Source: a virus (taxonomy: Duplodnaviria; Heunggongvirae; Uroviricota; Caudoviricetes). From it: a stretch of 33,477 bases of DNA. The stretch is from IMG/VR virus record IMGVR_UViG_3300029193_000102, positions 1-33,477 of that record, one strand, 5' to 3'. Position 1 is the stretch's first letter. Each line of letters begins with the position of its first letter. Shown here piece by piece: positions 892 to 17,043 of the stretch. Under the pieces are notes generated by a model. It was not told where the DNA came from, did not search any database, and saw nothing but the letters and a program-made list of their open reading frames with translations. The translations under genes and the position numbers were made by a program.

Positions 892-981
892 GGAGAGATG
901 CCGGAGCGGCTGAACGGACCGGTCTCGAAAACCGGAGTGGGGGCAACTCCACCGGGGGTTCAAATCCCCCTCTCTCCGCCA
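892..981 (+). tRNA. serU: tRNA-Ser, anticodon CGA; prophage integration target
   Basis: 90-nt sequence GGAGAGATGCCGGAGCGGCTGAACGGACCGGTCTCGAAAACC...GGTTCAAATCCCCCTCTCTCCGCCA with long variable arm, T-loop GGTTCAAATCC and 3' CCA; anticodon loop CTCGAAA. Confidence 0.9.
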
Positions 982-5401: not shown

Positions 5402-5459
5402 AAAAAGGGCGGCAGAGCAGTCACGGAGTAAAACTGATACCGCCAAACGTCACCAGAAA
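5402..5459 (-). ncRNA. dicF: DicF small RNA (53 nt at 5407..5459) with 3' stem-loop and U-tract
   Basis: Minus-strand sequence TTTCTGGTGACGTTTGGCGGTATCAGTTTTACTCCGTGACTGCTCTGCCGCCC followed by TTTTT matches recalled DicF; lies upstream of dicB as in the Qin dicB operon. Confidence 0.7.
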
Positions 5460-6715: not shown

Positions 6716-7135
6716 CTATGATGCGTTTTGTGCTTTCTTTTTACGGATTTCTTCGTAGATCATATTGTAATACTGTTTTTTCTCTTCAAGAGTTTTTAAT
6801 AATTTATCCGCTTCACTTTCTGGCAGTTCGTCTAAGAGATCTAAAAAAATACGTTGTCGTGGCGTTAGAACCCTTGTTTCATAACTGGAGGCTGTGTTCG
6901 TTGATGATGAAACGATACCATCCATCCATCCCCGGGGTAACCCAAAGGACTCTTCGATAATCTCCACCATATCATCAGCGATCCGTTTTTTTCCCTTTTT
7001 CCCCTCTGGGTACAACATTCTTGATACATAAGAAGGCTCGCGCCCGATCTTTCTGGCCACGTTAACCGCTTTACCATCGCATTTCTCATCACGAATTTTG
7101 ATGAGTTGCTGTCGTCTAAATTCATATTTGTCCAT
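6716..7135 (-). CDS. Prophage repressor, HTH (DicA/RacR-like immunity repressor), possibly translated leaderless
   Basis: 139 aa; HTH-like segment GKAVNVARKIGREPSYVSRML; C-terminal FLDLLDELPESEAD resembles recalled DicA; divergent from a Cro-like gene; no SD before the ATG but a TATTAT -10 (7142..7147) sits just upstream. Confidence 0.7.
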   Translation of the reverse strand: MDKYEFRRQQLIKIRDEKCDGKAVNVARKIGREPSYVSRMLYPEGKKGKKRIADDMVEIIEESFGLPRGWMDGIVSSSTNTASSYETRVLTPRQRIFLDLLDELPESEADKLLKTLEEKKQYYNMIYEEIRKKKAQNAS

Positions 7136-7141
7136 AGGTAA

Positions 7142-7211
7142 ATAATAGATGCGATTACCGCAAGGTAAACAACCTGTGGGTATTGACTTTTGTTTACCTG
7201 TGGGTATTCTT
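7142..7211. promoter_or_regulatory. Divergent promoter/operator region: direct repeats ACCTGTGGGTATT (7172..7184, 7196..7208) overlapping a rightward promoter (-35 TTGACT 7183..7188, -10 ~7205..7211) and a leftward promoter (-35 GTTTAC 7165..7170 rc, -10 TATTAT 7142..7147 rc)
   Basis: Repeats and hexamers read directly; spacings 16-17 bp; placement between the divergent repressor and Cro-like genes. Confidence 0.4.
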
Positions 7212-7235: not shown

Positions 7236-7517
7236 ATGGAAGAATTAAGAATATTTCTCAATTCTCTTTCGTCAGATGAACAGCGTATGTTTGCATGCGA
7301 GTGTGGTACCAGCATCGGTTATCTAAGAAAGGCATTGAGTAAAGGTCAAGTGTTAGGGGCATCGTTATGTGTCCTTATTGAGCGAGCCAGTAATGGTGAA
7401 GTTACACGTCAGCAACTAAGGCCTTTTGATTGGATGAATATTTGGCCCGAGCTGGAAGATACCAAAACGTTAACACAACCACTTTCTAGGAGCTTGATTC
7501 ATGAAAATCAAGCATGA
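7236..7517 (+). CDS. Cro-like HTH regulator (YdaS/DicC-like)
   Basis: 93 aa; AAGGAG SD 7 nt upstream; HTH segment CGTSIGYLRKALS; QLRPFDWMNIW resembles recalled Rac YdaS; divergent from the repressor. Confidence 0.7.
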   Translation: MEELRIFLNSLSSDEQRMFACECGTSIGYLRKALSKGQVLGASLCVLIERASNGEVTRQQLRPFDWMNIWPELEDTKTLTQPLSRSLIHENQA

Positions 7518-7926
7518 ACACATCCGCATGGCGATGAATGCATGGGCGCGTCCTGATGGCGAAAAAGTTCCAGCAGCTGGAATAACCCAGGCTTATTTTG
7601 AGTTGGGTATGACGTTCCCAGAACTGTATGACGACAGCCATCCGGAAGCCCTGGCTCGCAATACCCAGAAAATTTTCCGCTGGGTAGAGAAAGACACCCC
7701 TGATGCTGTTGAAAAAATGCAGGCTCTGTTACCGGCGATCGAAAAGGCGATGCCGCCTTTGCTGGTGGCCCGTATGCGCAGCCACAGTTCTGAATATTAC
7801 CGTGAGATCGTCGAACGGAGGGATCGGCTGGTGAAGGATGTCGATGATTTTGTTGCGTCAGCGGTTGTTTTGTATGACCAGATGAATCGCGGCGGCCCGG
7901 CAGGGAATGCTGTGGTGATGCACTAA
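7501..7926 (+). CDS. YdaT-like regulator (CII-position protein)
   Basis: 141 aa; N-terminus MKIKHEHI matches recalled Rac YdaT; AGGAG SD; start overlaps the Cro-like gene end. Confidence 0.65.
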   Translation: MKIKHEHIRMAMNAWARPDGEKVPAAGITQAYFELGMTFPELYDDSHPEALARNTQKIFRWVEKDTPDAVEKMQALLPAIEKAMPPLLVARMRSHSSEYYREIVERRDRLVKDVDDFVASAVVLYDQMNRGGPAGNAVVMH

Positions 7927-7948
7927 AAGCACGGTGTTCGGGGGGTTT

Positions 7949-8911
7949 ATGAGCAGCAAGCTTCATGGTCTTGTCTGGGAAGGGTGCGCCTTCACCGGCA
8001 TGATCTTATCCAGGGTGGCGGTTATGGCCCGTCTTGCAGACTACAGCAATGACGAGGGCGTGTCATGGCCTGCCATTGAAACTATCCGGCGTCAGATCGG
8101 TGCAAGAAGTGAATCCACAGTGAAATCGGCTATTGCAGAACTGGCGAAAGAGGGCTGGCTGACGAAGGAAGAGCGTAAGGTCGGTGGGCGTAATGTAAGC
8201 AATATCTATCGGCTTAATGTGGAAAAACTCGAAGCAGCTGCGGCGGCGGCGCGTGAGTCATATAAACCGAAAAGAAAAATTAGCCCGGCAAAAAATGACC
8301 CGTTAACAGTTGACCCGTCAAATATTGACCCCTCAACGGTTGACCCGTCAAATTTTGATGGATCAACTGTTGATAAAAAACTGCCGATTAGGGGGGCGAT
8401 GATTGACCCCGATCCGTCAGTATTAAAACCTGATCCGTCAGATAAAAGATCTTCTTGTCCGGACGCTTCGCAACCGGACCCGCAGACGGCTGAACAGGAT
8501 TTTTTAACCCGACACCCTGACGCGGTTGTGTTCAGTGCGAAAAAACGCCAGTGGGGAAGTCAGGAAGATTTGGTGTGCGCACAGTGGATCTGGGGACGAA
8601 TCGTGAGTCTTTACGAGCAGGCGGCCAGCTATGATGGCGAGATCACTAGACCGAAAGAACCCAACTGGACAGCATGGGCCAATGACGTTCGCACAATGCG
8701 GATGCTGGATGGCAGAACTCACAGACAAATTTGTGAAATGTTTGGGCGTCTCCAGCGGGATTCGTTCTGGGTAAAAAACATCATGAGTCCGGCAAAACTC
8801 CGGGAAAAATGGGATGAACTGGTTATCCGCCTGGGGCGTTCGCCTGCGCAGCGTTGCGTGAATCACATTTCTGAACCGGACACTGAAATTCCGCCGGGCT
8901 TCAGGGGGTGA
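7949..8911 (+). CDS. Replication initiator (lambda O-like role) with N-terminal winged-helix domain and internal pentapeptide repeat
   Basis: ATG 7949 after G-rich SD (ORF track starts at GTG 7934); N-terminal HTH-type domain; immediately followed by a DnaC-like loader; contains iteron array. Confidence 0.7.
   Translation: MSSKLHGLVWEGCAFTGMILSRVAVMARLADYSNDEGVSWPAIETIRRQIGARSESTVKSAIAELAKEGWLTKEERKVGGRNVSNIYRLNVEKLEAAAAAARESYKPKRKISPAKNDPLTVDPSNIDPSTVDPSNFDGSTVDKKLPIRGAMIDPDPSVLKPDPSDKRSSCPDASQPDPQTAEQDFLTRHPDAVVFSAKKRQWGSQEDLVCAQWIWGRIVSLYEQAASYDGEITRPKEPNWTAWANDVRTMRMLDGRTHRQICEMFGRLQRDSFWVKNIMSPAKLREKWDELVIRLGRSPAQRCVNHISEPDTEIPPGFRG
8310..8441. repeat. Iteron-like direct repeats (TTGACCCGTCAAAT family) with exact 15-bp periodicity inside the initiator gene; candidate replication origin
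   Basis: Copies start at 8310, 8325, 8340, 8355, 8370, with degenerate copies at 8403 and 8431; they encode the repeated VDPSN(I/F)D peptide. Confidence 0.5.
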
Positions 8912-8917
8912 CGTGTC

Positions 8918-9664
8918 ATGAAAAACATTGCGGCAGTTGGGGTTCTTGAACGTATTCGCAGACTTGCACCACAGGGGGCGGTTCCACCGTACCGGACGGT
9001 GGAGGAGTGGCGGGAATGGCAACTTGCTGAAGGACGAAAACGCAGCGAGGAGATTAACCGCCAGAATCGCCAGTTGCGGGTGGAAAAAATCCTGAATCGT
9101 TCGGGCATTCAGCCTCTGCACAGCAAATGCTCGTTTGCAAATTATCAGGTGCAGAACGACGGGCAAAAATACGCGCTGAGCCAGGCCAAATCCATAGCTG
9201 ACGAACTGATGACCGGGTGCACGAATTTTGTGTTCAGCGGTAAAACCGGCACCGGGAAAAATCACCTTGCAGCGGCGATGGGCAACCGGCTGATGGTGAA
9301 GGGGCGCAGCGTGATTATCGTCACCGTTTCTGACGTCATGAGCGTGTTGCATGACAGCTACGACAACGGCAAATCCGGGGAAAAATTTTTACAGGAGCTT
9401 TGCGGGGTTGATTTGCTGGTCCTGGATGAAATAGGCGTTCAGCGGGAGACGAAAAACGAGCAGGTGGTATTGCACCAGATAATTGATCGCCGGACAGCAT
9501 CACTGTGCAGTGTCGGGATGTTAACAAACCTGAATCATGCCGCAATGAGTACGCTTCTTGGTGAGAGGATTATGGACCGCATGACCATGAACGGTGGTCG
9601 ATGGGTGACGTTTAACTGGGATAGCTGGCGTCCAAATGTCAGCAATATGAGGGTTGTGAAGTAA
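8918..9664 (+). CDS. DnaC-like helicase loader (IstB-type AAA+ ATPase)
   Basis: 248 aa; Walker A GKTGTGKNHLAAAMG, Walker B LLVLDEIG. Confidence 0.85.
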   Translation: MKNIAAVGVLERIRRLAPQGAVPPYRTVEEWREWQLAEGRKRSEEINRQNRQLRVEKILNRSGIQPLHSKCSFANYQVQNDGQKYALSQAKSIADELMTGCTNFVFSGKTGTGKNHLAAAMGNRLMVKGRSVIIVTVSDVMSVLHDSYDNGKSGEKFLQELCGVDLLVLDEIGVQRETKNEQVVLHQIIDRRTASLCSVGMLTNLNHAAMSTLLGERIMDRMTMNGGRWVTFNWDSWRPNVSNMRVVK

Positions 9665-13206: not shown

Positions 13207-13465
13207 ATACAGCGAACGCCATTGGTTTAGTTGGATATTTACTGTGCCGGACAAAAACGGTTTGCGGGGAAATCTTAGTTAAGTAGAATAACTGCGGGTG
13301 CTTGAGGCTATCTGTCTCAGGCATGAACACCAAAAGGCAGATAGAGAAAAGCCCCAGTTAACATTACGCGTCCGGCAAGACGCTTAACATTAATCTGAGG
13401 CTCAATCTATGAACGGCAAATCTAGGTTAGCCTCTTACGTGCCGAAAGGCAAGGAGAAGCAGGCT

Positions 13466-13621
13466 ATGAAGCAGCAAAAGGCGATGTTAGTCGCCCTGAT
13501 CGTCATCTGTATTACCGTCATTGTGACGGCACTGGTAACGAGGAAAGACCTCTGCGAGGTACGAATCCGAACCGGCCAGACGGAGGTCACTGTCTTCACA
13601 GCTTACGAACCTGAGGAGTAA
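13466..13621 (+). CDS. hok: Hok/Gef-family type I toxin (HokD/RelF-like)
   Basis: 51 aa MKQQKAMLVALIVICITVIVTALVTRKDLCEVRIRTGQTEVTVFTAYEPEE, near-identical to recalled HokD; AAGGAGAAG SD 7 nt upstream. Confidence 0.8.
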   Translation: MKQQKAMLVALIVICITVIVTALVTRKDLCEVRIRTGQTEVTVFTAYEPEE

Positions 13622-16486: not shown

Positions 16487-16804
16487 GTGGTAAATTGGCG
16501 GCTGGTGGGTGTGGTGGTTGTTGCTTTCCCGTTGCTGAAAAAGAAAACGCCAGACTGTTAGCCGGGTATCAGTTATCTGGAGAAATTTTTAAATACCTCA
16601 CAATTCAGGCGGTTGACTGTTGTCTGGTTTGCGGGGAGTTTGTTAAAAGAAACTGGCATGGTGAATCCCCCTGTGCGGAGGGGCAATCAGCAACTGGTGT
16701 TTTGTCACCGACCCTTATCCTTTCTGTGCGGGTTCAGGTGCTGATACTGAACTCACCGGGAGGCACCCGGCATCATGTGCATGATGATACAGATACGCGG
16801 CTTT

Positions 16805-16830
16805 AGCCCCTCTCCGGAGGGGCTTTCTTG
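16805..16830 (+). terminator. Rho-independent terminator (plus strand)
   Basis: AGCCCCTC-TCCG-GAGGGGCT followed by TTCTTG. Confidence 0.45.
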
Positions 16831-16835
16831 TGGGC

Positions 16836-16861
16836 AAAAAAAAGCCCGAGTGGGTTCGGGC
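16836..16861 (-). terminator. Rho-independent terminator (minus strand), convergent with the previous one
   Basis: A8 run then GCCCGA-GTGGGT-TCGGGC on the plus strand, i.e. hairpin plus U-tract on the minus strand. Confidence 0.4.
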
Positions 16862-17043
16862 AACAGCATGAGATATACATTTTTATAATCGAATGGATTT
16901 TAACCAGAATTCATAAGGCTGCGCAACTGCGCGGTCTTTTTCGAATTGCGGGCTGTCGTCTCTCTTCTGCCATTGTCCTGTAACTTCCGGACTTCAGCCT
17001 GCTCCTTATCTGACTCACAATATTATCCCGGCCGGGAGGATTC

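What the first reader, a model, noticed from the sequence alone, without database searches (positions are those of the whole stretch)
8310..8441. Iteron array with exact 15-bp periodicity inside the replication initiator gene
Five TTGA(C/T)-type repeats start at 8310, 8325, 8340, 8355 and 8370 (consensus close to TTGACCCGTCAAAT), with two degenerate copies at 8403 and 8431. They encode a pentapeptide repeat (VDPSN(I/F)D) in the initiator. This is the lambda O/ori arrangement, where the origin lies within the initiator gene and the repeat is constrained at both DNA and protein level.
Basis: partly seen in the sequence, partly recalled or inferred. Interest (0 to 1): 0.5.

Follow-up and report, generated by a model that had tools for sequence, protein, structure and literature searches.

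The report
Prophage replication origin inside initiator gene
The 15-bp repeats are real and are most likely the binding sites of a lambdoid prophage's replication origin, sitting inside the gene for the protein that binds them; this is a textbook arrangement, seen here in an initiator family where I found no description of it.

Summary
TTGA-N4-TCAA occurs four times in the 33.5-kb window, all at 8310, 8325, 8340 and 8355, exactly 15 bp apart. Weaker units lie at 8295 and 8370, and two iteron-like GATCCGTCA boxes at 8411 and 8432.

The array lies in a 320-aa O-like initiator gene (7949-8911), followed by a DnaC-like loader gene. The initiator has a winged-helix N-domain (Pfam HTH_36, not lambda O). 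Its C-domain is homologous to that of phi80 gp15.

The array and boxes fall exactly in the part of the gene that encodes a predicted disordered linker (aa 108-169).

Comparative evidence for a DNA-level function:
- 77 of 80 distinct homologues across Enterobacterales carry at least 3 units at exactly 15 bp.
- Synonymous codons are fixed by position in the repeat but randomised in the conserved N-domain.
- Units occur in both orientations, which changes the peptide (D-P-S versus E-G-S).
- The repeat type changes when the N-domain changes.
- The most conserved DNA in the gene (8384-8473) is the GATC-box/AT-rich block.

The lambda-like "origin within the initiator gene" reading is therefore supported, but by inference only, without a replication assay. 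Protein-level constraint on the repeat looks weak. Verdict: a new member of a known kind, of moderate-to-low interest.

The parts
7949..8911 (+). Initiator gene (320 aa from the ATG at 7949; an in-frame GTG lies at 7934). RefSeq names it 'helix-turn-helix domain-containing protein'. It belongs to PHROG 391, 'replication initiation O-like'.
   Evidence: ORF list. Pfam HTH_36 at aa 25-71, with no Phage_rep_O match. PHROG 391, E 2e-115. RefSeq annotation of identical genes.
7949..8263 (+). Codes for the N-terminal winged-helix DNA-binding domain (aa 1-105), the presumed iteron-binding module.
   Evidence: AlphaFold2 model with pLDDT 74-88: helix-turn-helix plus a beta-hairpin wing. Foldseek matches MarR/PadR/ArsR-type winged-helix dimeric regulators. 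Pfam HTH_36 and a weak DnaD_N match.
8270..8455 (+). Codes for a predicted disordered linker (aa 108-169). It contains the whole repeat array and both GATC boxes.
   Evidence: pLDDT 30-40 over residues 108-169. Coordinates converted from residue numbers.
8295..8306 (.). Degenerate iteron 0: ATGACCCGTTAA.
   Evidence: In register, 15 bp before the unit at 8310.
8310..8321 (.). Iteron 1: TTGACCCGTCAA (dyad TTGAC/GTCAA).
8325..8336 (.). Iteron 2: TTGACCCCTCAA.
   Evidence: It is mutated to TTGCCCCCTCAA in a share of close E. coli relatives.
8340..8351 (.). Iteron 3: TTGACCCGTCAA.
8355..8366 (.). Iteron 4: TTGATGGATCAA. Its centre is in the flipped orientation, and its reverse complement contains GATCCATCA.
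8370..8381 (.). Half-degenerate unit TTGATAAAAAAC (left arm only), at the start of an A-rich stretch.
   Evidence: GC is 0.30 over 8350-8389.
8384..8473 (.). The most conserved DNA block of the gene across genera. It holds a left iteron arm (TTGACCCC, 8403), GATC box 1, an AT-rich spacer, GATC box 2 and GATAAAAGATCTTCTTGTCCGG. It is the candidate site of unwinding and helicase loading, and it is also the junction where modules are exchanged.
   Evidence: 78-88% nucleotide identity among sub-family A genes from Erwinia, Mixta, Edwardsiella and Morganella, the highest in the gene. Sequence listing. Megablast homology to other phages starts at 8411 or 8444.
8411..8419 (.). GATC box 1: GATCCGTCA.
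   Evidence: In the family the first box is GATCC(G/A)T(C/T)A in 77 of 77 genes, with Asp always encoded by GAT.
8432..8440 (.). GATC box 2: GATCCGTCA. It lies 21 bp after box 1 here, and 24 bp after it in 69 of 76 relatives.
8420..8455 (.). AT-rich segment (about 65% AT here; family mean 65-71%), bounded by G/C-rich DNA. It is the candidate DNA-unwinding element.
   Evidence: Composition profile. Family-averaged AT profile anchored on box 1.
8489..8848 (+). Codes for the helical C-terminal domain (aa 181-300). It is homologous to the C-domain of phi80 gp15 and is the presumed loader/helicase-recruiting module.
   Evidence: pLDDT 80-93. BLASTP against phi80 gp15: 36% identity, E 5e-26. PHROG hits annotated 'DnaD-like helicase loader' and 'replisome organizer'.
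8849..8908 (+). Codes for a disordered C-terminal tail, ...SEPDTEIPPGFRG, matching the C-terminus of E. coli DnaT.
   Evidence: phmmer against PDB chains 2ru8, 6aep and 9zbt. NCBIfam DnaT positions 159-179. P-x-G-F-R is invariant in the six-sequence alignment of the window protein with five diverse phage homologues, which spans both C-domain types.
8918..9664 (+). DnaC-like AAA+ helicase-loader gene.
   Evidence: Pfam IstB_IS21, E 7e-19. NCBIfam PRK12377, E 1e-152, and DnaC, E 1e-89.

Best explanation
Window 8295-8473 is the replication origin of a lambdoid prophage, embedded in the gene of its own initiator.

The proposed steps are these:
1. The initiator's N-terminal winged-helix domain, probably as a dimer, binds the dyad-symmetric units TTGA-N4-TCAA, which recur every 15 bp. 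There are four good units at 8310-8366, a weaker one on each side, and two related GATCCGTCA boxes at 8411 and 8432.
2. The resulting nucleoprotein complex destabilises the adjacent conserved AT-rich block, about 8420-8455.
3. The initiator's C-terminal domain and its DnaT-like tail bring in host DnaB with the phage DnaC-like loader encoded by the next gene.

The origin sits in the stretch of the gene that encodes a disordered linker between the two folded domains. The DNA can therefore be selected for protein binding while the protein only needs an open reading frame. A period that is a multiple of three lets units be gained or lost without a frameshift.

Shown here: the anatomy, the DNA-level selection, the co-variation with the N-domain, the domain structure and the homology to phi80 gp15. 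Inferred: binding of this protein to these sites, unwinding at the AT-rich block, and helicase loading.
For: - **Specificity.** All 4 TTGANNNNTCAA matches in the 33.5-kb window are in the array at exact 15-bp spacing. No other comparable tandem repeat exists in the window.
- **Conservation.** 77 of 80 distinct homologous genes have chains of at least 3 (median 5) TGA-N4-TCA units at exactly 15 bp. They come from Escherichia, Shigella, Klebsiella, Erwinia, Edwardsiella, Morganella, Proteus, Providencia, Yersinia, Rahnella and others. No gene has such a chain at periods 12-18 or 21, and shuffled genes never exceed 2. Isolated phages that must replicate carry the array: SfII, SfIV, LLS, phiNP and Klebsiella phages.
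- **DNA-level selection.** In S-D-x-S-K units the first Ser is TCT in 201 of 238 (background 8%). The second Ser is TCA in 202 of 238 (background 14%), and Lys is AAA in 190 of 191. In the window's sub-family, GTT is used 15 of 15 times, ATT 16 of 16, TCA 20 of 20 and CCA 9 of 9. Conserved Ser, Asp, Val and other columns of the N-domain in the same genes use 2-6 codons, with the top codon at 0.33-0.83, mostly below 0.65.
- **Asp codon by position.** Asp is GAC in the array (81%) but GAT in 77 of 77 first boxes downstream, which creates GATC.
- **Orientation flips.** TTGACCCCTCAA (D-P-S) and TTGAGGGGTCAA (E-G-S) both occur. The DNA motif is kept while the peptide changes.
- **Co-variation with the N-domain.** N-domains 53-72% identical keep 15-bp TGA-N4-TCA units with altered flanks. 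Phi24B O (38% identical) has 21-24-bp repeats, GGGGTGGGGCAGGAGCTGCCC. mEp460_ev081 has the same C-domain (86.6% nt) but a different N-domain and 23-bp repeats that do not give a peptide repeat.
- **Conserved AT-rich block.** It lies directly after the array and is the most conserved DNA of the gene.
- **Protein model.** The array and boxes coincide with a disordered linker between a winged-helix domain and a helical domain.
- **Precedent.** The lambda, P22, L and phi80 initiators all carry their iterons inside the gene (PMC8022706; PMC7466680; GenBank JX871397 annotation). The window's C-domain is homologous to that of phi80 gp15.
- **Loader.** A DnaC-like gene is adjacent.
Against: - There is no experiment on this family. 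I found no paper that maps an origin or shows binding for an HTH_36-type initiator.
- The AT-rich block is only moderately AT-rich (about 65% over 40 bp), and in the window itself 8350-8389 is slightly richer. The place of unwinding is therefore uncertain.
- A 15-bp spacing is tight for one winged-helix dimer per unit, so the stoichiometry is unclear.
- Units within a gene are related by duplication, and the genes are related by descent. The codon counts are therefore not independent events; the N-domain control only partly corrects for this.
- Close E. coli relatives carry point changes in iteron cores and deletions of a unit or a box. The sites are thus not individually essential, or many copies lie in decaying prophages.
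- Most genus-level relatives have no loader gene next to the initiator.
Confidence: 0.8

Rival explanations
1. The repeats are DNA sites for the initiator or another protein, but they have a regulatory role and are not the site of initiation. Possible roles are autoregulation, a transcriptional roadblock within the pR operon, copy-number control by handcuffing, or Dam/SeqA-dependent timing. The actual origin would lie elsewhere.
For: - The DNA-level constraint shows only that the DNA is read by something, not what follows from that.
- The conserved GATC pair at 21-24 bp would suit SeqA or Dam, and GATC density here is the highest in the window.
- 30 of 76 relatives have an adenine methyltransferase gene overlapping the initiator's stop codon.
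- Iterons of plasmids serve both initiation and control (established knowledge of iteron plasmids).
Against: - No other iteron-like array exists in the 33.5-kb window.
- The array is followed by a conserved AT-rich block, as in lambda and phi80, where the in-gene iterons are the origin.
- A regulatory role and an origin role are not mutually exclusive.
Confidence: 0.1
2. The repeats are only a protein feature. On this view a slippage-generated pentapeptide-repeat linker (x-D-P-S-N) is selected for flexibility or length, and the DNA periodicity is a by-product.
For: - The units are in frame and encode a repeat in a predicted disordered linker.
- Copy number varies by whole units, as expected from slippage.
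Against: - Position-specific synonymous codons are fixed across genera, while N-domain codons in the same genes are randomised.
- The same tripeptide D-P-S is encoded GAC-CCG-TCA in the array but GAT-CCG-TCA in the boxes.
- Units flip orientation and change the peptide.
- The centre residue is free: A, P, T, G, S, R or V.
- A sister initiator has 23-bp DNA repeats that give no peptide repeat.
Confidence: 0.04
3. The signal acts at the RNA or single-strand level. The array folds into a long hairpin that regulates translation or mRNA stability of the initiator, or serves as a single-strand initiation signal.
For: The region is predicted to fold far better than shuffles, as RNA (z = -4.5) and as ssDNA (z = -5.1).
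Against: - Any tandem array of palindromic units is itself an extended palindrome, so the fold is an automatic by-product.
- No Rfam family matches here.
- Conservation concerns the arms TTGA/TCAA at fixed 15-bp spacing rather than compensatory pairing.
- In sub-family B the centres vary freely without a complementary partner.
Confidence: 0.03

Closest known systems
Bacteriophage lambda ori within gene O (four ~19-bp dyad-symmetric iterons plus an AT-rich region, with O and P proteins)
   Same: - The origin lies in the middle of the initiator gene.
- It has tandem dyad-symmetric sites followed by an AT-rich stretch.
- The initiator is modular, with an N-terminal site-specific domain and a C-terminal recruiting domain.
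- The next gene encodes the helicase-loading partner.
- Both lie in the pR operon after cro and cII (PMC7466680 and PMC8022706; window anatomy).
   Different: - The N-domain is Pfam HTH_36, not Phage_rep_O.
- The units are 12-bp cores at an exact 15-bp period instead of ~19-bp iterons at about 20-24 bp.
- The loader is DnaC-like (AAA+), not lambda P.
- Two GATC-containing iteron-like boxes flank the AT-rich part.
- The AT-rich tract is shorter and weaker.
Phage phi80 gene 15 / ori (gp15-binding sites annotated inside gene 15, GenBank JX871397)
   Same: - The C-terminal domain is homologous (36% identity, E 5e-26).
- The iterons lie at the same relative position in the gene.
- They are followed by a similar AT-rich junction: phi80 GTATTAAAAGATCTTCGTCCG, window GTATTAAAAC...GATAAAAGATCTTCTTGTCCGG.
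- The period is a multiple of three (21 bp).
   Different: - The phi80 N-domain is of the lambda O type (Phage_rep_O), and its iterons (TTCCCGAAAACGG-like) are unrelated.
- Its partner is the P-like gp14.
P22 gene 18 and phage L gene 18 (in-gene iterons of other sequence; L has six imprecise 11-bp repeats)
   Same: These are distantly related O-like initiators, each with its own short repeats inside the coding region. From them the authors infer the origin by the same logic used here (PMC8022706).
   Different: The repeat sequences and periods are different, and the partner is a DnaB-type helicase (gp12).
Initiators of SfII, SfIV, phiP27 (L17), LLS, phiNP and Klebsiella prophages (same HTH_36 family)
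   Same: They have the same N-domain family (53-72% identity) and the same 15-bp TGA-N4-TCA array and GATC boxes at the same place. phiP27 also has a DnaC-like neighbour.
   Different: - The unit flanks differ: TCTGAC-NNN-TCAAAA versus (A/G)TTGA-SSSS-TCAA.
- C-domains and downstream genes are swapped (Phg_2220_C domain; Dam methylase, PerC-like or P-like neighbours).
- None of these records annotates an origin, and the SfIV paper does not mention one.
Iteron-type plasmid replicons (pPS10, R6K, RK2, P1, F) and the Bacillus phage SPP1 oriL within gene 38 (from my own knowledge)
   Same: A winged-helix initiator binds tandem repeats next to an AT-rich unwinding element. In SPP1 the origin also lies inside the gene for the origin-binding protein.
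   Different: Plasmid iterons are usually 17-22 bp, spaced about two helical turns apart, and lie outside the rep gene. No sequence relationship to these was tested here.

Membership tests
Lambdoid 'origin within the initiator gene' arrangement (lambda O/ori type) | Tandem repeated sites inside the initiator ORF, between the parts that encode the N- and C-terminal domains. | tested here: met
   The array at 8295-8381 and the boxes at 8411 and 8432 fall in the linker, aa 108-169, between the folded domains.
Lambdoid 'origin within the initiator gene' arrangement (lambda O/ori type) | The repeats are specific to, and co-vary with, the N-terminal DNA-binding domain. | tested here: met
   The same N-domain family keeps the 15-bp TGA-N4-TCA units. 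mEp460_ev081 (different N-domain, same C-domain) and Phi24B O (38% identical N-domain) carry different repeats. This is comparative evidence, not a binding test.
Lambdoid 'origin within the initiator gene' arrangement (lambda O/ori type) | An AT-rich unwinding region lies directly next to the iterons. | tested here: inconclusive
   A conserved segment of 65-71% AT (family mean) follows the first GATC box, at about 8420-8455 in the window. It is shorter and less AT-rich than in lambda. Unwinding was not tested.
Lambdoid 'origin within the initiator gene' arrangement (lambda O/ori type) | A helicase-loading partner is encoded next to the initiator. | tested here: met
   A DnaC-like gene lies at 8918-9664. 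Relatives have P-like or DnaC-like neighbours in only 9 of 76 cases.
Lambdoid 'origin within the initiator gene' arrangement (lambda O/ori type) | The initiator binds the repeats, and the fragment supports initiator-dependent replication. | not testable with these tools
   This needs EMSA or footprinting and a mini-replicon assay. The only hint is a 16-kb circular record (NZ_CP148542.1) made of this early region. Its partial gene table lists no other replication initiator, but the record may be an assembly artefact.
Lambda O protein family (Pfam PF04492 Phage_rep_O) | The N-terminal domain matches Phage_rep_O. | tested here: not met
   There is no PF04492 hit at E <= 0.01; HTH_36 matches at 27.9 bits. 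phi80 gp15 run the same way matches PF04492 at E 6e-25.
Lambda O protein family (Pfam PF04492 Phage_rep_O) | The C-terminal domain is shared with lambdoid O-type initiators. | tested here: met
   36% identity, E 5e-26, to the C-domain of phi80 gp15.
PHROG 391 / HTH_36 'replication initiation O-like' initiators (SfII, SfIV, CP-933-type prophages) | Full-length match to the family profile and an HTH_36 winged-helix N-domain. | tested here: met
   phrog_391, E 2e-115, over residues 1-320. HTH_36 is above its gathering score. 56-57% identity to the SfII and SfIV proteins.
Iteron plasmid Rep replicons (RepA/pi type) | 17-22-bp iterons about two helical turns apart, outside the rep gene, bound by a WH1-WH2 Rep protein. 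| tested here: not met
   The units have a 15-bp period and lie inside the gene. The protein has one winged-helix domain plus an unrelated helical C-domain. Pfam gives only a weak RP-C N-terminal hit, in relatives.
DnaD-like / replisome-organizer proteins | A DnaD N-terminal winged helix and a DnaD/DnaB_2-type C-domain. | tested here: inconclusive
   Pfam DnaD_N scores 17.3 bits, below its cut-off of 27. PHROG families annotated 'DnaD-like helicase loader' and 'replisome organizer' match the C-domain at E 3e-26 and 1e-12. No structural comparison of the C-domain was pursued.

The most novel reading that the evidence does not exclude
Beyond being an ordinary in-gene origin, this origin class may be gated by adenine methylation, and it may load the helicase by mimicking the restart protein DnaT.

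Three observations point that way:
- Two iteron-like boxes are always written so as to contain GATC, with Asp encoded by GAT in 77 of 77 cases. They lie two helical turns apart, inside the most conserved and AT-rich part of the origin.
- About 40% of relatives have a Dam-type methyltransferase gene translationally coupled to the initiator gene.
- Every initiator examined ends in the C-terminal tail of DnaT (...IPxGFRG), whatever its C-domain.

Together these would describe a phage origin whose firing is controlled by Dam and SeqA, as at oriC, and whose initiator recruits DnaB-DnaC through a DnaT-like tail.
Probability: 0.2. Interest if true: 0.55.

Novelty: new member of a known kind. Interest (0 to 1): 0.3.

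Why it matters
This replication module is very common. Its DNA is found in 1886 of 5426 complete E. coli genomes, O157:H7 and other pathogenic lineages among them, and in prophages across Enterobacterales. Public annotation calls the gene only 'helix-turn-helix domain-containing protein' and marks no origin.

Knowing where the origin is, and what its binding motif looks like, has three uses:
- Prophage replication modules can be typed.
- Incompatibility or cross-activation between co-resident prophages can be predicted.
- Mini-replicons can be built.

The family also illustrates clearly how a DNA element can dictate the coding sequence of a disordered protein linker. Conceptually it adds an example to a textbook arrangement, not a new principle.

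Tried and rejected
- **DnaA box.** TTTTCCACA on the minus strand at 8218 fits TTWTNCACA, but such a match occurs in only 2 of 80 homologues, so it is treated as chance.
- **oriC 13-mer.** GATCTTTTATCTG (minus strand, 8439) has 2 mismatches. AGATCT after box 2 is confined to sub-family A (6 of 8 genes, 0 of 71 in sub-family B), and phi80 has the similar AAAAGATCTTCG. I note it as a resemblance only.
- **Structured RNA.** The region folds well, but that follows automatically from tandem palindromes, and no Rfam family matches here.
- **Promoters and terminators.** The scan found nothing in or near the array. Only pR/pRM-like sites at 7142-7210 turned up.
- **Literature.** The Stx-phage O/iteron paper (PMC7466680) looked like direct evidence because it names phage P27. 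Its iterons are of the lambda type, however, whereas GenBank phiP27 L17 belongs to the present family. It therefore gives precedent, not proof. The SfIV genome paper does not mention an origin. Searches for this family's iterons found nothing.
- **Solved structures.** A sequence search gave only the DnaT tail match.
- **Plasmids.** A 16-kb circular record carries this module, but it has homopolymer frameshifts and may be an assembly artefact, so I use it only as a hint.
- **Viral-contig scan.** It returned almost only near-identical E. coli copies. These were useful for unit-deletion variants but not for diversity, and the genome scan gave the diversity.
Full report
**1. The observation**

Reading 7900-9100 shows in-register 15-bp units:
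- 8295 ATGACCCGTTAACAG
- 8310 TTGACCCGTCAAATA
- 8325 TTGACCCCTCAACGG
- 8340 TTGACCCGTCAAATT
- 8355 TTGATGGATCAACTG
- 8370 TTGATAAAAAACTGC

Tandem Repeats Finder reports the array with periods 15 and 30 (score 101 for period 30). It is the strongest tandem repeat in the window.

The dyad TTGA-N4-TCAA occurs four times in the whole 33,477-base window on either strand. All four are at 8310, 8325, 8340 and 8355. Shuffles give a mean of 0.76, and none of 100 reaches four.

Downstream lie two GATCCGTCA boxes at 8411 and 8432, 21 bp apart. They differ from the iteron core TGACCCGTCA by one base. The fourth iteron contains the same box, GATCCATCA, on the other strand.

- The unit at 8370 is only half a unit.
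- A degenerate unit at 8295 was missed.
- The 'copy at 8403' is a left arm (TTGACCCC) fused to the first GATC box.

**2. The gene and its neighbours**

The array lies in an ORF at 7949-8911 (320 aa) on the + strand. The neighbouring genes are:
- a cI-like repressor on the opposite strand (6716-7135);
- a YdaS-type cro-like gene (7236-7517);
- a YdaT-type cII-position gene (7501-7926);
- a 248-aa DnaC/IstB-type AAA+ protein downstream (8918-9664).

pR/pRM-like promoter matches lie at 7142-7210. The window also holds DicF, sok, STnc100 and AsxR RNAs and a tRNA. It is therefore a lambdoid prophage of E. coli.

The protein matches PHROG 391, 'replication initiation O-like', over its whole length (E 2e-115). 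It matches Pfam HTH_36 at residues 25-71, but not Pfam Phage_rep_O. The N-terminal half plus the array is present in 1886 of 5426 complete E. coli genomes. There it is annotated only as 'helix-turn-helix domain-containing protein'.

**3. Protein architecture**

I built an AlphaFold2 model on a 43-sequence alignment. It gives four parts:
- a winged-helix domain, residues 1-105 (pLDDT 74-88);
- a disordered segment, residues 108-169 (pLDDT 30-40);
- a helical domain, residues 181-300 (pLDDT 80-93);
- a disordered tail.

Residues 108-169 correspond to nt 8270-8455. The array and both GATC boxes therefore lie exactly in the part of the gene that encodes the disordered linker.

Foldseek places the N-domain with MarR/PadR/ArsR-type winged-helix regulators. 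These matches are weak (E about 4e-3) but agree with Pfam.

The C-domain is 36% identical (E 5e-26) to the C-domain of phage phi80 gp15. The N-domain of gp15 is of the lambda O type. Its GenBank record annotates four gp15-binding sites inside gene 15 with a 21-bp period. Those sites are followed by ...GTATTAAAAGATCTTCGTCCG, which resembles the window's GTATTAAAAC...GATAAAAGATCTTCTTGTCCGG.

**4. Relatives keep the array**

Phage relatives at 41-63% protein identity (SfIV, Klebsiella phage 1 LV-2017, LLS, phiNP) have 15-bp arrays at the same place in the gene.

A scan of one genome per species returned 80 loci from many genera of Enterobacterales. In 77 of 80 distinct genes the longest chain of TGA-N4-TCA units (at most 1 mismatch) at exactly 15 bp has 3-9 members, with a median of 5. 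No gene has such a chain at periods 12-18 or 21, and shuffled genes never exceed 2. The three exceptions are two genes with more degenerate units, visible by eye, and one unrelated fusion.

Two sub-families appear.
- **Sub-family A:** the window, with Erwinia, Mixta, Edwardsiella and Morganella. The unit is (A/G)TTGA-SSSS-TCAA.
- **Sub-family B:** SfII, SfIV, Klebsiella, Proteus, Yersinia and others. The unit is TCTGAC-NNN-TCAAAA.

**5. The constraint is on the DNA**

I picked units by peptide pattern, which does not select for codon choice, and counted codons.

| Position in unit | Codon | Count | Background in the same genes |
|---|---|---|---|
| Sub-family B, first Ser | TCT | 201 of 238 | 8% |
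| Sub-family B, second Ser | TCA | 202 of 238 | 14% |
| Sub-family B, Lys | AAA | 190 of 191 | 60% |
| Sub-family A, Val | GTT | 15 of 15 | 23% |
| Sub-family A, Ile | ATT | 16 of 16 | 26% |
| Sub-family A, Ser | TCA | 20 of 20 | 11% |
| Sub-family A, Pro | CCA | 9 of 9 | 8% |

As a control for shared ancestry, I looked at conserved residues of the N-domain in the same genes. They use 2-6 codons, with the commonest at 0.33-0.83, mostly below 0.65. One invariant Ser, for example, is encoded by all six codons.

Four further observations point the same way:
- The centre codon of the unit is free: A, P, T, G, S, R or V.
- In sub-family A, units occur with the centre in either orientation. TTGACCCCTCAA encodes D-P-S, and its reverse complement TTGAGGGGTCAA encodes E-G-S. 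The DNA motif is kept while the peptide changes.
- The tripeptide D-P-S is written GAC-CCG-TCA in the array but GAT-CC(G/A)-TCA in the downstream boxes. Asp is GAT in 77 of 77 first boxes, which creates GATC.
- In mEp460_ev081 the repeat period is 23 bp, so there is no peptide repeat at all.

Caveat: units are related by duplication and genes by descent, so the binomial P values overstate the independence of the counts. The direction of the result is nevertheless clear.

**6. Co-variation with the N-domain**

- mEp460_ev081 shares the window's C-domain (86.6% nt identity from 8444 onward). It has a different N-domain and different 23-bp repeats.
- LLS and phiNP have the related N-domain and the 15-bp array, but a different C-domain (Phg_2220_C).
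- Along a series of N-domain identity, Kp4866-6 (72%) and phiP27 L17 (53%) keep 15-bp TGA-N4-TCA units with altered flanks.
- Phi24B O (38%) instead has GGGGTGGGGCAGGAGCTGCCC three times, at 21-24 bp.

This is the pattern long known for lambdoid O proteins, in which the N-terminal half and the iterons form one specificity unit.

**7. The block after the array**

Family-averaged AT content peaks at 65-71% over +10 to +45 from the first GATC box. In the window this is about 8420-8455. The peak lies between G/C-rich flanks, and the window's own profile gives 65% AT there.

Across the genera of sub-family A, nucleotide identity to the window peaks at 8384-8473 (78-88%). This is the highest in the gene, although the block encodes disordered protein.

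The two GATC boxes are 24 bp apart in 69 of 76 relatives and 21 bp apart here. The window's densest GATC cluster, 4 in 100 bp, is at this spot. Megablast homology to sub-family B phages begins exactly at 8411. The block is therefore also the junction at which modules are exchanged.

**8. Interpretation**

The best explanation is that 8295-8473 is the prophage's origin, in three steps:
1. The winged-helix N-domain binds the tandem dyad units and the two related boxes.
2. The complex opens the adjacent AT-rich block.
3. The C-domain and tail recruit DnaB with the DnaC-like loader.

This is the arrangement of lambda, phi80, P22 and L, as described in PMC7466680 and PMC8022706. Binding, unwinding and loading are inferred and have not been shown.

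Rivals:
- **A purely regulatory set of sites.** This is not excluded and is not mutually exclusive with an origin.
- **A protein-only linker repeat.** The codon data contradict it.
- **An RNA or ssDNA hairpin.** The fold (z -4.5 and -5.1) is an automatic consequence of tandem palindromes.

**9. Points against or uncertain**

- I found no experiment on this family.
- The AT-rich block is modest.
- 15 bp is tight for one winged-helix dimer per unit.
- Close E. coli relatives show core substitutions (TTGCCCCCTCAA, TTAACCCATCAA, TTGACCAGTCAA) and deletions of one 15-bp unit or one 21-bp box. Either these changes are tolerated, or they mark decay in cryptic prophages.
- Only 9 of 76 genus-level relatives have a P-like or DnaC-like neighbour. 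The commonest neighbours are a Dam-type methyltransferase (29) and a PerC-like protein (23).

**10. Novelty**

The kind of element, an origin with iterons inside the initiator gene of a lambdoid phage, is textbook. The specific family has four distinguishing features:
- an HTH_36 N-domain;
- 15-bp codon-locked dyad units that can flip orientation;
- paired GATC boxes;
- a DnaT-like tail.

I did not find it described in the searchable literature, and origins are not annotated in the records I inspected. I rate it a new member of a known kind, with interest 0.3.

The most novel reading not excluded is a Dam/SeqA-gated origin coupled to a DnaT-mimicking recruitment tail. I give it a probability of about 0.2.

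Noticed in passing
window 8849-8908 (last 20 codons of the initiator gene): The C-terminal tail ...VNHISEPDTEIPPGFRG closely matches the extreme C-terminus of E. coli DnaT, [21 protein letters not shown] (PDB 2ru8, 6aep, 9zbt; NCBIfam DnaT). P-x-G-F-R is invariant in the six aligned homologues, whichever C-domain they carry. This probably explains the 'primosomal protein I' annotations. It suggests that the initiator recruits DnaB-DnaC through a DnaT-like tail.
   Followed up: partly
window 8361, 8411, 8432, 8448; relatives L086-L165: The densest GATC cluster of the window (4 in 100 bp) sits in the putative origin. The two GATC boxes are conserved family-wide, with Asp always encoded by GAT. 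In 30 of 76 relatives an adenine methyltransferase gene overlaps the initiator's stop codon: 29 are Pfam Dam PF05869 and 1 is D12 class. Three more relatives have a C5 methylase there. A link to Dam/SeqA control is possible.
   Followed up: partly
L087, L088, L090, L091, L093 (gene nt 346-450); window 8355-8366: Iteron units occur with the G/C-rich centre in either orientation (CCCC versus GGGG). This creates long inverted repeats within the array and changes the encoded peptide. Whether the orientation sets the polarity of bound initiator is unknown.
   Followed up: partly
window 8411 and 8444: Nucleotide homology to otherwise different phage initiator genes starts exactly at the first GATC box (8411) or at AAAAGATCTTC (8444). 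The conserved origin block is therefore the recombination junction between the N-domain-plus-iteron module and the C-domain module.
   Followed up: partly
L003 (Escherichia phage mEp460_ev081) 1699-1828: This sister initiator has the same C-domain but a different N-domain. It carries five 23-24-bp repeats (GGTCAAAATGA...) at the equivalent place. The period is not a multiple of three, so there is no peptide repeat.
   Followed up: yes
L170 = NZ_CP148542.1 (15,977-bp circular E. coli 'plasmid' pZ1322PEC0161-2): This circular record consists only of a lambdoid early-right and lysis region. It holds cI, cro, this initiator with an intact array, the DnaC-like gene, Q and lysis genes, and resembles a natural lambda-dv. 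Its partial gene table lists no other replication initiator. The initiator shows paired homopolymer frameshifts, so the record may be a long-read assembly artefact.
   Followed up: partly
L006-L085, L167, L168 (close E. coli relatives): Variants include a 15-bp deletion of one unit (L033, L084) and a 21-bp deletion of one GATC box (L085). There are also core substitutions such as TTGCCCCCTCAA, TTAACCCATCAA and TTGACCAGTCAA. Some relatives lack the DnaC-like gene.
   Followed up: partly
window 892-978, 5407-5458, 13296-13471, 16627-16835, 16839-16891: Rfam matches above gathering score: tRNA (+), DicF (-), sok antitoxin RNA (+), STnc100 (+) and AsxR anti-stx2 sRNA (-). These are typical cargo of EHEC-type lambdoid prophages.
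   Followed up: no
window 8218-8226 (minus strand): TTTTCCACA is a consensus DnaA box (TTWTNCACA), about 85 bp upstream of the array. Such a match is present in only 2 of 80 homologues, so it is probably chance.
   Followed up: yes
window 7236-7517 and 7501-7926: The genes in the cro and cII positions match Pfam 'YdaS_toxin' (below its cut-off) and 'YdaT_toxin'. These family names probably mislabel ordinary lambdoid regulators. The two ORFs overlap by 17 nt.
   Followed up: no
L172 (phiP27, AJ298298) versus PMC7466680: The phage called P27 in the Stx-phage O/iteron paper has lambda-type iterons. The replication genes L17/L18 of GenBank phiP27 are an HTH_36 initiator with 15-bp units plus a DnaC-like protein. 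The discrepancy is unresolved.
   Followed up: no
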